DNA of 51,299 nt. It comes from a virus (taxonomy: Duplodnaviria; Heunggongvirae; Uroviricota; Caudoviricetes). The position numbers are program-made. Location: the IMG/VR virus record IMGVR_UViG_641522650_000003. One strand, given 5' to 3'. Of the stretch, positions 18,001 through 21,000 are shown piece by piece. The first letter of the stretch is position 1. Each line of letters begins with the position of its first letter.

Positions 18001-21000
18001 AGCAATATTACTCACCAGACGCACCGCATCTTCATAAGGTCGGGCGATCGCCAGGATGATCAACATTTGCACCATTTCAGCGACGAACGTGACGGCACCG
18101 GCGGTAATGGGGTTAAAGACTTTATCAGTGCGCCCGCGACGGATCAGGATGCTGTGTACCAGGCCGCCGAGCAATCCTTCAACGATGGTCGAGATCATGC
18201 AACTTAGCGCGGTCATGCCCCCCATCGAATATCGATGTAACCCGCCGGTCAGGCCAACCAGCCCACCGACGACCGGACCGCCGAGTAAGCCGCCCATGAC
18301 CGCGCCTATCGCACGGGTATTGGCAATAGAATCGTCAATGTGCAACCCAAACCAGGTGCCCATGATGCAGAAGATGGAAAAGACGATGTAGCAGAGAAAT
18401 TTATGCGGCAGACGAACCGTGACCTGCATTAACGGTATGAATAATGGCGTTTTACTCATTAACCATGCAATGACTAAAAAAACGCACATCTGCTGAAGCA
18501 GCAGCAACACCAGATTAAAATCGTACATACCCGCAAACCACACTTCCCTTTAAAACGCGTAACATATATTGCCTGCGTTTAACTTTCTTTGAACTCTTGC
18601 AGAAAAATGAGAATTCGTGAGTACAATCACTCAAAATCGCCTGGCAAAAATAAAATCACCCTATAAATGCACAAAAAACGGGCAAAACTACCTGGTTCGC
18701 AAAACTGCGTCTAAAGTTAAACCGGGACCTCGCGAGCAAGGGTGAGACGATGGCGCTTTACACAATTGGTGAAGTGGCGTTGCTTTGTGATATTAACCCT
18801 GTCACGTTACGCGCGTGACGCAACATTTTTAAAAATCGACGAAGATCGTCCAGGAGCGCCGTTTTTCAAGGGTTGGATAGATGATTCGTTTACCATGTCG
18901 ACGAACTTCGACGAATTTCGCCGATAAAAAGTGTCCCATACATGCCCCATTGATGCCCCATAAACAATATCAGGAATTGACACTGGTTATCCATACAGAT
19001 AAAAATAACACCTGTACATAACTACAGTTACAGGAGGGGGTAATGACTCCAACTTATTGATAGTGTTTTATGTTCAGATAATGCCCGATGACTTTGTCAT
19101 GCAGCTCCACCGATTTTGAGAACGACAGCGACTTCCGTCCCAGCCGTGCCAGGTGCTGCCTCAGATTCAGGTTATGCCGCTCAATTCGCTGCGTATATCG
19201 CTTGCTGATTACGTGCAGCTTTCCCTTCAGGCGGGATTCATACAGTGGCCAGCCATCCGTCATCCATATCACCACGTCAAAGGGTGACAGCAAGCTCATA
19301 AGACGCCCCAGCGTCGCCATAGTGCGTTCACCGAATACGTGCGCAACAACCGTCTTCCGGAGCCTGTCATACGCGTAAAACAGCCAGCGCTGGCGCGATT
19401 TAGCCCCGACGTATCCCCACTGTTCGTCCATTTCCGCGCAGACGATGACGTCACTGCCCGGCTGTATGCGCGAGGTTACCGACTGCGGCCTGAGTTTTTT
19501 AAGTGACGTAAAATCGTGTTGAGGCTAACGCCCATAATGCGTGCAGTTGCCCGGCATCCAACGCCATTCATGGCCATATCAATAATTTTCTGGTGCGTAC
19601 CGGGTTGAGAAGCGGTGTAAGTGAACTGCAGTTGCCATGTTTTACGGCAGTGAGAGCAGAGATAGCGCTGATGTCCGGCAGTGCTTTTGCCGTTACGCAC
19701 CACCCCGTCAGTAGCTGAACAGGAGGGACAGCTGATAGAAACAGAAGCCACTGGAGCACCTCAAAAACACCATCATACACTAAATCAGTAAGTTGGCAGC
19801 ATCACCACAGGAGGGTGTTATGCGTGTTGAGATCTGTATCGCTAAAGAAAAAATCACTAAAATGCCAAACGGTGCTGTGGATGCGTTAAAGGAAGAATTA
19901 ACCCGACGCATCAGTAAACGTTATGACGATGTAGAGGTGATCGTAAAAGCCACCAGCAACGATGGCCTTTCTGTTACGCGCACCGCCGATAAAGATTCAG
20001 CTAAAACTTTTGTTCAGGAGACTCTGAAAGATACCTGGAAGTCTGCTGACGAGTGGTTTTTTCACTAATTAACACGTAAAATCGGTAACAGCTGGAAATC
20101 ATTCAATACTCGCACTATCGAAAGTTCGCCAGCCAGCCGTGGCACGTTCTTGCATACGACGTGCTACGGTTTCATTCATCTCCGACCGGAAACTTCTTAT
20201 ACAAAGTCGATACGCCAACATCATAGATGATCACCACCTTCTGGCGAGAAACTCCTGATGCAATTTGTCGTCCGGCCTGTGCCTATTGCTCCGGCGTGAG
20301 AGTAATACAGTAAACTGTAGAAAAAGCCCATTAAACCTAATATAATAATAAGTTACAGAATTATCTTTACTGAATAATAGATATATGAATATTAGTGAAC
20401 TTAAAAAGTGCATACACTATGAAGTAATAGGTTGTAAACGCCCTTTCTCCTGGCGAAAAGCAATTGTTCGCGCAATAAAACACAGAAGATCACGTTATTT
20501 ATTTTGGTGGCGCATAGCAAAATATCTTTTTGATAAAGGCGGATACCGGCGAAAGATTGCAGGAAAAATAGAACGCTTCATTCTTGATAAATACAATGTA
20601 ACCGTTCCCTTAACTGTAAATATTGGTAAAGGGTTCGACATATCTTATCTCAATGGCGTTGTTATCGGTCACAAAGTTACAATAGGTGAAAATTGTTCAA
20701 TTAAGCCTGGGGTAACTATTGGACTTCGCGGTGAATTTAATGATATGGATATTGTCATAGGAAATAATGTAACCATTGGCTGTAACGCCACCATCCTTGG
20801 TGGCAAAGTGCATATAGGGAATAATGTAAAAATAGGAGCTCATGCATTGGTACTGCATGACATTCCTGATGACTCCACATTCATTACCAAATTTCACTCT
20901 GAAATTATTTATAATTCATCTCACACATAATTCCGTTTAATCACAGCTCAGGCCATACGATATCCGGGGCTGTATTTATATCAATCCGACTCACTAATAC

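What the first reader, a model, noticed from the sequence alone, without database searches (positions are those of the whole stretch)
20069..20940. Low-GC hexapeptide acetyltransferase moron occupying the place of a Pin/Gin-type invertase next to the tail-fibre genes
Between tfa and dinI, where Mu/P1/e14-type phages carry an invertase controlling tail-fibre switching, only the last ~40 codons of an invertase remain, with an amber codon where Pin has Trp. The space where its catalytic domain should be is an AT-rich segment carrying a 181-aa CysE/WcaB-like acetyltransferase on the opposite strand. The arrangement suggests a former invertible host-range segment replaced by acquired cargo; such acetyltransferases in prophages can O-acetylate surface polysaccharides, but the substrate here is unknown.
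Basis: partly seen in the sequence, partly recalled or inferred. Interest (0 to 1): 0.6.

Follow-up and report, generated by a model that had tools for sequence, protein, structure and literature searches.

The report
Tail-fibre-linked acetyltransferase-like gene beside dead invertase
A defective Shigella prophage carries an intact, AT-rich acetyltransferase-like cargo gene that travels between unrelated phages together with a tail-fibre tip and its chaperone, and here it abuts the last 42 codons of a DNA invertase that once flipped tail-fibre genes; the gene is common and annotated, but its function is untested and its usual catalytic residues are missing.

Summary
Window 20385-20930 (+) encodes an intact 181-aa left-handed beta-helix (hexapeptide) protein in a 31-40% GC block. 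Window 20175-20300 (-) is the last 42 codons of a PinE-type invertase, with TAG where Pin has Trp.

Relatives 94.5% identical over dinI and the pin 3' end keep dinI-pinE-invertible fibre segment, so an invertase switch was lost. But the acetyltransferase did not arrive alone. It is the end of a fibre-tip + Tfa + acetyltransferase cassette also found in P2-like, P1-like and phage-plasmid backbones without any pin remnant. The junction predates the amber codon. No crossover sites remain.

The most likely role is a lysogen-expressed envelope-glycan modifier that masks the receptor of the fibre it travels with, as NeuO does. This is inferred, not shown. It is a new variant of a known kind, of moderate interest.

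The parts
19039..19806 (-). IS1 copy inserted 13 bp upstream of the dinI start codon, with a 9-bp target duplication ACAGGAGGG. It is context only and not part of the cassette.
   Evidence: 100% identical to three other IS1 copies in the window; the duplicated flanks were read directly.
19820..20068 (+). dinI-like gene at the prophage end.
   Evidence: Pfam DinI E 1.1e-18; NCBIfam PRK10597 E 7e-19, below its cut-off.
20069..20171 (.). Spacer that is homologous to the 3' flank of pinE in e14-type elements.
   Evidence: blastn: window 20071-20300 matches L004 6001-6229 as one 88% block that runs from downstream of pinE into its 3' end.
20172..20300 (-). Pseudogene fragment comprising the last 42 codons (helix-turn-helix domain) of a PinE-type serine invertase plus its stop codon. 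There is an internal TAG at 20283-20285 in place of Trp.
   Evidence: tblastn with PinE matches residues 143-184, 86% identity, E 7.6e-20. Translation. RefSeq annotates the same stretch in E. coli as 'DNA-invertase, internal stop, missing N-terminus'.
20301..20316 (.). Junction between the pin fragment and the acetyltransferase cassette.
   Evidence: pinE similarity ends at 20300. Similarity to the cassette in other phage backbones begins at 20311-20317.
20318..20346 (+). Promoter-like site, TAGAAA-17 nt-TATAAT, 39 bp upstream of the ATG.
   Evidence: 10 of 12 consensus matches (the number of such sites in the region is not above shuffles). The -35 hexamer is identical and the -10 is TA[T/C]AAT in all five phage contexts aligned. 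Function was not tested.
20385..20930 (+). Intact 181-aa protein with a serine-acetyltransferase-like fold: about 70 aa of helices followed by a left-handed beta-helix. The residues at the CysE Asp143/His158 positions are Thr72/Tyr88.
20941..21513 (-). Tail-fibre assembly chaperone gene tfa, convergent with the acetyltransferase-like gene across a 10-bp gap. Its last ~58 codons lie in the low-GC block.
   Evidence: Caudo_TAP E 2.5e-37. About 95% identical to lambda tfa only over 21116-21520. 85% identical to phage 613R2 over the whole gene.
21513..22824 (-). C-terminal part of the side tail fibre gene stf (collar domain, His-x-His fibre repeats). The tip, up to 21704, plus the patch 21899-22196, is shared with the cassette in phage 613R2.
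   Evidence: Pfam Collar E 2.6e-12, Phage_fiber, and gp37_C weak; blastn against L003.
22825..23592 (+). IS1 copy that splits stf, with a 9-bp target duplication GCATAATTG. The tail fibre gene is therefore dead in this genome.
   Evidence: blastn and flank reading. Removing the IS1 and one copy of the duplication restores a single 1056-aa ORF.
23593..25460 (-). N-terminal part of stf.
   Evidence: ORF list; reconstruction after removing IS1.

Best explanation
What it is (shown). Window 20301-20940 is the outer end of a portable tail-fibre host-range cassette. The cassette consists of the fibre tip, the Tfa chaperone and, convergent with tfa, an AT-rich gene for a protein with a serine-acetyltransferase-like fold.

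In this lineage the cassette, on a lambdoid tail module, is joined to the dinI-pin end of an e14/SfV-type prophage. The joint lies inside pin at codon 142. It removed the invertase's catalytic domain and the whole invertible fibre segment. The leftover 42 codons later picked up a TGG->TAG change.

In this Shigella genome the prophage is further decayed: IS1 lies in stf and in front of dinI. The acetyltransferase-like gene is nevertheless intact.

How it most likely works (inferred). The gene is transcribed from its own promoter in the lysogen, independently of the late operon it faces. The cytoplasmic, probably trimeric, beta-helix protein uses an acyl-CoA to modify an envelope glycan while it is still on the cytoplasmic side. 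Candidates are LPS core, the O-unit, ECA and colanic acid.

The modified surface would no longer be recognised by fibres of the type encoded next door. The cassette would thus carry both a host-range determinant and self-exclusion. This is the logic of NeuO in CUS-3, Oac in Sf6 and GtrC in BTP1. The product is not a cysteine-pathway enzyme.

Because the canonical Asp/His pair is Thr/Tyr in this clade, the chemistry may differ from O-acetylation by a His base. N-acylation or another catalytic residue are possible.
For: History:
- The identical junction occurs in 57 E. coli genomes and in IMG/VR prophages.
- Intact dinI-pinE-invertible-segment relatives are 94.5% identical.
- The amber codon is absent from a sublineage that has the same junction.
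- The cassette is found without any pin remnant in P2-like, phage-plasmid and P1-like backbones.
- The cassette's left edge is the same in all of them.

Linkage to fibres:
- A convergent tfa lies within 60 bp in 59 of 78 viral loci. This holds in 8 of 23 lineages clustered at 80% identity, spanning 36-100% identity to the window protein.
- Divergence of the protein and of the adjacent Tfa is weakly correlated (rho 0.34, p about 0.014).

Protein:
- Strong purifying selection, dN/dS 0.07-0.12.
- The gene stays intact, with identical sequence, in Shigella genomes where tfa is cut to 85 aa and stf is destroyed.

Moron features: low GC and a conserved promoter-like site.

Precedents:
- NeuO is a prophage-borne beta-helix O-acetyltransferase interpreted as superinfection exclusion (PMC13001214).
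- NeaT is an AT-rich acyltransferase at the same position, opposite in direction to the tfa homologue yfdK in a P2-like prophage. It is expressed in culture and changes surface behaviour (PMC3573123).
Against: - There is no expression or biochemical evidence for this gene. Two papers list it only as 'serine acetyltransferase', one of them saying the reason for its presence is unknown (PMC9603915, PMC6456863).
- The general-base His and its Asp partner are kept by CysE, by WcaB and by every homologue at 36-52% identity, but both are replaced here. Activity cannot be assumed.
- No His is conserved across the whole Tyr clade.
- No terminator was found after the gene, and the number of promoter-like sites in the region is not above shuffled sequence.
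- About half of the phage-borne lineages are not next to tfa. The 70%-identity copy between ybjL and rcdA has no phage genes around it.
- The correlation between the protein and Tfa is weak, so a recombination hot spot at the end of the fibre operon could explain the adjacency without any functional coupling.
Confidence: 0.5

Rival explanations
1. Pseudo-enzyme or re-purposed scaffold. The protein keeps the SAT fold and perhaps CoA binding but no longer transfers acyl groups. It would act by binding something, such as a host enzyme, a glycan precursor or a fibre component.
For: Both members of the catalytic pair are replaced (Thr72/Tyr88) in exactly this clade, while all other family members, CysE and WcaB keep them. 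No His is conserved across the whole clade. Purifying selection shows that the protein still matters.
Against: Almost all other family-invariant residues are retained, including the IGCN motif and the glycine ladder. Some beta-helix N-acetyltransferases work without a catalytic base (my own knowledge of QdtC/WlbB; not tested here). His96 and His153 are conserved in the closest subclade.
Confidence: 0.2
2. Fibre-related function. The protein modifies or helps assemble the tail fibre or its chaperone, which would explain why it stays next to tfa.
For: Tight convergent adjacency to tfa, from a 36-bp overlap to a 30-bp gap, in eight lineages and several phage families.
Against: The gene has the opposite orientation to the late operon and its own promoter-like site. 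It has low GC, typical of cargo. Related fibres and Tfa proteins such as lambda's function without it. Copies exist without any fibre genes. The gene is kept intact where stf and tfa are destroyed.
Confidence: 0.08
3. Anti-phage defence or counter-defence cargo sitting in a hot spot, unrelated to surface chemistry.
For: The slot next to truncated pin holds other cargo in relatives: a GH55 tailspike, a ClpP-like protease, and Avs2 next to pinE. In P2-like phages the position after the fibre genes is a recognised variable moron site (PMC3573123).
Against: There is no match to any PADLOC model. It is a single small gene with no partner. The fold points to an acyl-CoA transferase.
Confidence: 0.1
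4. A true serine O-acetyltransferase, as annotated, feeding cysteine synthesis or O-acetylserine signalling.
For: Database name. SATs are the best sequence and fold matches in the PDB.
Against: Scores are 76.9 against a cut-off of 210.65 for TIGR01172, and 85.1 against 150 for EpsC. The residues at CysE Asp92, Asp157, Arg192 and His193 are absent, and the catalytic Asp143/His158 are Thr/Tyr (residue roles from PMC9547175). There is no Ile-ended C-terminal tail; the sequence ends ...NSSHT. The N-terminal domain is only about 70 aa.
Confidence: 0.03
5. In-situ replacement. A lambdoid ancestor had stf-tfa-[alternative tfa'-stf']-pin, and the acetyltransferase gene was inserted over the alternative half and the pin 5' end.
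For: The gene has the orientation that the alternative tfa' would have, and pin' lies on the same strand as stf/tfa, as in e14-type switches. In one P1-like element an acetyltransferase homologue follows a cin cut after codon 79, with U' still present.
Against: No crossover site remains in stf or tfa. The acetyltransferase+tfa+tip block moves as a unit in backbones without pin. All relatives found with intact pin next to this dinI are myovirus-type, not lambdoid.
Confidence: 0.15

Closest known systems
NeuO, the polysialic-acid O-acetyltransferase of prophage CUS-3 (E. coli K1)
   Same: A prophage-borne, AT-rich cargo gene for a left-handed beta-helix acyltransferase. It is expressed in the lysogen and modifies the glycan that the phage's own receptor-binding protein recognises. 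It is interpreted as superinfection exclusion (PMC13001214, PMC3046976).
[quoted passage not shown]
   Same: It holds the same genomic position and orientation, directly after and opposite to the tfa homologue (the P2 'moron position 2'). It has very low GC, its own promoter, and effects on surface behaviour (PMC3573123).
   Different: These are integral-membrane acyltransferase-3 proteins (PF01757). The window protein is a soluble beta-helix protein that must act on the cytoplasmic side.
Serine acetyltransferase CysE (and the short forms EpsC and WcaB)
   Same: The fold: a helical N-domain followed by a beta-helix. These are the best PDB matches by sequence (profile E 2e-19) and by structure.
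   Different: All curated cut-offs are missed. The serine-binding residues and the Asp143/His158 pair are missing. The context is a prophage, not the cysteine or colanic-acid loci.
Pin/Gin/Cin/Hin invertases with their invertible fibre segments (e14 P, Mu G, P1 C)
   Same: The fragment is 86% identical to the PinE C-terminus. Relatives 94.5% identical in DNA carry the complete switch next to the same dinI.
   Different: Only the DNA-binding tail survives, with an internal stop. There is no catalytic domain, no crossover site and no alternative fibre half.
Receptor-blocking genes encoded beside receptor-binding genes (T5 llp next to oad; cor of phi80/N15/HK022)
   Same: The proposed logic is the same: the exclusion function is linked to the host-range determinant so that the two transfer together. 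This rests on my own knowledge of those systems and was not tested here.
   Different: Those are small lipoproteins or membrane proteins that block FhuA directly. Here an enzyme-like cytoplasmic protein would have to act through glycan chemistry.

Membership tests
Left-handed beta-helix (hexapeptide-repeat) acyltransferase superfamily | Tandem hexapeptide repeats that form a left-handed beta-helix | tested here: met
Left-handed beta-helix (hexapeptide-repeat) acyltransferase superfamily | Acyl-CoA-dependent transfer, with trimeric active sites between subunits | not testable with these tools
   Only a monomer model could be made, and no biochemistry is available.
Serine O-acetyltransferase (CysE, TIGR01172 / NF041874 EpsC) | Score at or above the curated family cut-off | tested here: not met
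   TIGR01172 76.9 bits against 210.65; NF041874 85.1 against 150; PRK11132 52.9 against 397.
Serine O-acetyltransferase (CysE, TIGR01172 / NF041874 EpsC) | Catalytic His158 stabilised by Asp143 (E. coli numbering; PMC9547175) | tested here: not met
   Tyr88 and Thr72 occupy those columns in both the HMMER alignment to 4n69 and the MAFFT alignment with E. coli CysE.
Serine O-acetyltransferase (CysE, TIGR01172 / NF041874 EpsC) | Serine/cysteine pocket residues Asp92, Asp157, Arg192, His193 | tested here: not met
   The columns hold a gap, Ser, Met and Asp.
Colanic-acid acetyltransferase WcaB (TIGR04016) | Score at or above the cut-off, and location in the wca cluster | tested here: not met
   59.4 bits against 194.65. 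The gene lies between tfa and a pin fragment in a prophage, whereas wcaB sits in the wca operon.
Pin/Gin/Hin serine DNA invertase (for the fragment 20172-20300) | C-terminal helix-turn-helix domain homologous to Pin | tested here: met
   tblastn with PinE residues 143-184, E 7.6e-20; PHROG 125 'DNA invertase' E 1.5e-6.
Pin/Gin/Hin serine DNA invertase (for the fragment 20172-20300) | N-terminal resolvase catalytic domain and an uninterrupted reading frame | tested here: not met
   There is no match to PinE residues 1-142 anywhere in 18900-23000, and there is a TAG at 20283-20285.
Pin/Gin/Hin serine DNA invertase (for the fragment 20172-20300) | Inverted crossover sites (pix/gix type) flanking a fibre segment | tested here: not met
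   The pix site was derived from L012. It has no match with up to 3 mismatches in the window. The only 5-mismatch hit in 19800-25500 lies inside dinI.
Phage moron (autonomously expressed cargo gene) | Composition unlike the flanking phage genes, and dispensable and variable among related phages | tested here: met
   GC 0.31-0.40 against about 0.5. Absent from lambda and most relatives that share tfa. Present in 315 of 5426 E. coli genomes.
Phage moron (autonomously expressed cargo gene) | Own promoter and terminator; expressed in the lysogen | tested here: inconclusive
   There is a conserved promoter-like site at 20318-20346. No terminator-like site follows the gene on its strand. No expression data are available.
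Prophage receptor-modifying acetyltransferases (NeuO type) | Encoded beside the receptor-binding protein genes of a temperate phage | tested here: met
   Convergent with tfa/stf here and in 59 of 78 viral loci.
Prophage receptor-modifying acetyltransferases (NeuO type) | Acetylates the phage's own receptor glycan and lowers adsorption | not testable with these tools
   This needs glycan analysis and adsorption assays.
Prophage receptor-modifying acetyltransferases (NeuO type) | Phase variation through a 5' repeat tract (NeuO-specific) | tested here: not met
   No tandem repeats in 20060-21000.

The most novel reading that the evidence does not exclude
Tail-fibre host-range cassettes of temperate coliphages may routinely carry their own receptor-masking factor. 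In that case a fibre tip, its chaperone and a SAT-fold protein would move as one unit between lambdoid, P2-like, P1-like and phage-plasmid genomes. In the clade found here the factor has given up the ancestral Asp/His chemistry. It would then act through a new catalytic arrangement or without catalysis, making it a beta-helix 'acetyltransferase' that is no longer an O-acetyltransferase yet is strongly conserved.
Probability: 0.2. Interest if true: 0.65.

Novelty: new variant of a known kind. Interest (0 to 1): 0.42.

Why it matters
If the gene alters LPS or another surface glycan, it is an unrecognised lysogenic-conversion factor. It is present in about 6% of complete E. coli genomes (315 of 5426), in ETEC H10407, in Shigella and on P1-like resistance plasmids. 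That would have consequences for serotyping, phage therapy host range and vaccine antigens.

The linkage to fibre tips would give a simple rule for predicting which phages a lysogen excludes. The loss of the catalytic pair under purifying selection offers a clean test case for how beta-helix acyltransferases change mechanism.

The truncated-invertase slot, filled in different relatives by this gene, a GH55 tailspike or a ClpP-like protease, shows how host-range switches are traded for fixed cargo.

If the gene proves inert, the finding reduces to a well-documented recombination scar.

Tried and rejected
- Crossover sites. The pix site was derived from an intact e14-type switch. Searches for it and for the AAACCNNGGTTT core in the window gave nothing in stf or tfa.
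- Transposon-like insertion of the cassette. There are no flanking direct or inverted repeats around 20301-20940.
- Phase variation. There are no tandem repeats.
- Defence-system membership. There is no PADLOC hit.
- First structure prediction. A 24-sequence alignment gave pLDDT 65 and was discarded. A 71-sequence alignment gave pLDDT 90.4.
- Invertase remnants next to the gene in other backbones. None were found in P2-like, phage-plasmid or P1-like IncY loci. The exception is one P1-like IMG/VR contig with a cin N-terminal stub.
- IS1-mediated rearrangement as the cause of the dinI/yehU adjacency. This was rejected because both IS1 copies have 9-bp target duplications and are simple insertions.
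- Strict co-descent of the gene and tfa. The correlation is only weak, so I do not claim co-evolution.
- Literature. Searches for a described function found only annotation-level mentions.
- Pfam scan of genes downstream of distant homologues that lack a detectable tfa. Results were mixed (baseplate/hub, T6SS, unknown), so adjacency to fibres is frequent but not universal.
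Full report
**1. What is in the sequence**

The ORF map gives the following order:
- an IS1 copy (19039-19806)
- dinI, 19820-20068 (+)
- a 316-bp gap
- a 181-aa ORF, 20385-20930 (+)
- tfa, 20941-21513 (-)
- the C-terminal 441 codons of stf, 21513-22838 (-)
- another IS1 (22825-23592)
- the N-terminal part of stf

Pfam confirms DinI, Caudo_TAP and the fibre domains, and finds hexapeptide repeats in the 181-aa protein. GC falls to 0.31-0.40 between about 20300 and 21100. 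That low-GC block covers the ORF and the last ~58 codons of tfa.

One minus-strand frame in the gap reads LTPEQ*AQAGRQIASGVSRQKVVIIYDVGVSTLYKKFPVGDE*. A full-length PinE taken from an E. coli locus matches only with its residues 143-184 (86% identity, E 7.6e-20). The internal stop is TAG at 20283-20285, where PinE has Trp.

**2. Where the pieces come from**

The block dinI-pin'-ORF-tfa occurs at 96-99% identity in 57 of 5426 complete E. coli genomes. One is ETEC H10407, where it forms the end of a lambdoid prophage (J, lom, stf, tfa) next to prfC.

The exact protein is on 542 contigs and is named from Shigella boydii. Other copies of the prophage lie next to yecD, or, in Shigella, next to yehU as in this window.

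Similarity to pinE ends at 20300. Searching with dinI plus the fragment found E. coli prophages that are 94.5% identical over that stretch and keep a full pinE. In strain 104 and in APEC E18005 the order is int-dinI-pinE-[fibre tip, tfa | tfa, fibre tip]-ymfQ-baseplate. The bracketed segment lies in opposite orientations in the two strains.

So the dinI-pin' end descends from a working invertase switch. That switch belongs to an e14/SfV-type myovirus prophage, not to a lambdoid one.

Other relatives show the same slot filled differently:
- a GH55 tailspike behind a longer pin remnant
- a ClpP-like gene behind a 402-bp pin remnant

Four IMG/VR loci have the identical pin'/cassette junction but still read TGG. 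The amber codon is therefore later decay of an already truncated gene.

**3. The acetyltransferase-like gene is part of a fibre cassette**

Window 20317-21704 is one 85%-identical block with phage vB_EcoM-613R2. The block covers the ORF, all of tfa and the last 64 codons of stf, and a further patch lies in stf.

Homologues at about 86-88% DNA identity lie against tfa, overlapping it by 36 bp, in several backbones:
- P2-like prophages
- a 49-kb phage-plasmid
- P1-like IncY plasmids, where the gene sits after the lysis genes at the place of cin and the C segment

None of these has a pin remnant. The left edge of the shared sequence is the same in all of them, about 70 bp upstream of the ATG. It includes a conserved TAGAAA-17-TA[T/C]AAT site.

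A survey of IMG/VR and of one genome per species found 91 family loci. A convergent tfa lies within 60 bp in 59 of 78 viral loci. This holds in 8 of 23 clusters at 80% identity, spanning 36-100% identity to the window protein.

Divergence of the protein and of the adjacent Tfa is only weakly correlated (rho 0.34, p about 0.014). The pairs have therefore been reshuffled as well as inherited.

A second P1-like contig has a different lineage of the gene (44% identity) directly after a cin cut at codon 79. A 70%-DNA-identity copy lies alone between ybjL and rcdA in some E. coli.

No crossover site, flanking repeat or tandem repeat was found around the gene in the window.

**4. What the protein is**

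The best NCBIfam matches are EpsC, CysE and WcaB, all far below their cut-offs. The PHROG family is of unknown function. PADLOC gives nothing.

In SAT, His158 is the general base, stabilised by Asp143. Asp92, Asp157, Arg192 and His193 line the serine pocket (PMC9547175). Two independent alignments place Thr72 and Tyr88 at the Asp143 and His158 columns. They place Ser, Met and Asp, or a gap, at the pocket columns.

Every family member at 36-52% identity keeps an acidic residue and His at the two catalytic columns, whether phage-borne or chromosomal. So do CysE and WcaB. Only the clade at 53% identity or more to the window protein has T/K/V plus Tyr. That clade includes the P2-like and P1-like copies and the ybjL islet copy.

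The clade is nevertheless under strong purifying selection (dN/dS 0.07-0.12). The gene is also intact in Shigella genomes where tfa and stf are broken by IS elements.

The database name 'serine acetyltransferase' is therefore wrong in substance, and even O-acetyl transfer by the usual mechanism is in doubt.

**5. Most likely function, and rivals**

Several features fit a lysogen-expressed cargo gene rather than a virion or assembly gene:
- the position directly after the fibre genes and opposite to them
- the low GC
- the conserved promoter-like site
- retention in decaying prophages

The closest functional precedents are:
- NeuO of CUS-3, a beta-helix O-acetyltransferase that modifies the capsule recognised by K1 phages and is read as superinfection exclusion (PMC13001214)
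- NeaT of CFT073, an AT-rich membrane acyltransferase at the same site opposite the tfa homologue yfdK. It is expressed from its own promoter and changes surface behaviour and virulence (PMC3573123).

I therefore favour modification of a cytoplasmically assembled envelope glycan that masks the receptor of the linked fibre. This step is inference.

The main rival is that the Thr/Tyr clade is no longer an enzyme of this kind. Lesser rivals are a fibre-assembly role, a defence-related role, and the annotated serine acetyltransferase activity, which the active-site and cut-off tests reject.

**6. Literature status and novelty**

Two papers list the gene without a function. The P1-like JL22 study says the reason for its presence is unknown (PMC9603915). 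The Citrobacter rodentium phiNP table lists ORF1 as DinI and ORF4 as serine acetyltransferase (PMC6456863). I found no description of the pairing with tfa, of the altered catalytic pair, or of the recurrent replacement of the invertase.

The kind is known: prophage cargo that modifies the cell surface, encoded next to receptor-binding genes. The variant is a SAT-fold subfamily with changed active-site residues, carried on a fibre cassette. Interest is moderate.

Noticed in passing
window 5078-5845, 14527-15294, 19039-19806, 22825-23592: There are four IS1 copies. The third has a 9-bp target duplication (ACAGGAGGG) and sits 13 bp upstream of the dinI ATG, separating dinI from its native upstream region. 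The fourth (duplication GCATAATTG) splits stf. Removing it restores a 1056-aa ORF, so the prophage cannot make this fibre.
   Followed up: yes
window 15610-18543 and loci L131-L138: The prophage end abuts yehS-yehT-yehU (btsSR) in Shigella. The same prophage end lies next to prfC in ETEC H10407 and next to yecD in other E. coli, giving at least three chromosomal positions.
   Followed up: partly
L129 7937-10102 versus L139 6937-9102: The pin-flanked fibre segment of the dusA prophage is in opposite orientations in two E. coli strains. This is direct evidence that this relative of the dead invertase is an active switch.
   Followed up: partly
L130 5353-7142; L140 6353-7415: Other cargo sits in the same truncated-pin slot: a glycoside hydrolase family 55 tailspike-like protein, and a ClpP-like protease subunit. 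Each has a different pin breakpoint.
   Followed up: no
L094 4525-5924: A P1-like IMG/VR contig carries cin cut after codon 79. It is followed by a 44%-identical acetyltransferase homologue that keeps the Asp/His pair, and then by a duplicated N-terminal fragment of the S fibre gene.
   Followed up: partly
L135 9138-10028: A 296-aa Macro-domain ORF lies between tfa and stf in one E. coli copy of this prophage.
   Followed up: no
L004 1124-9054: An Avs2 defence gene lies directly beside pinE. Two pinE copies lie within 242-bp inverted repeats around the fibre segment.
   Followed up: no
L010 5004-5555: A 73%-identical copy of the protein, with the same Tyr in place of the catalytic His, sits alone between ybjL and rcdA in E. 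coli O145:H28 and about 70 other genomes, with no phage genes nearby.
   Followed up: partly
window 23571-25460: The N-terminal half of stf contains a long Ala/Ser/Thr-rich low-complexity region that also gives long spurious ORFs on the opposite strand.
   Followed up: no
window 20840-20860 (- strand): A terminator-like hairpin with a T-run lies inside the acetyltransferase-like ORF on the opposite strand, about 80 bp downstream of the tfa stop. It could end the late fibre transcript.
   Followed up: no
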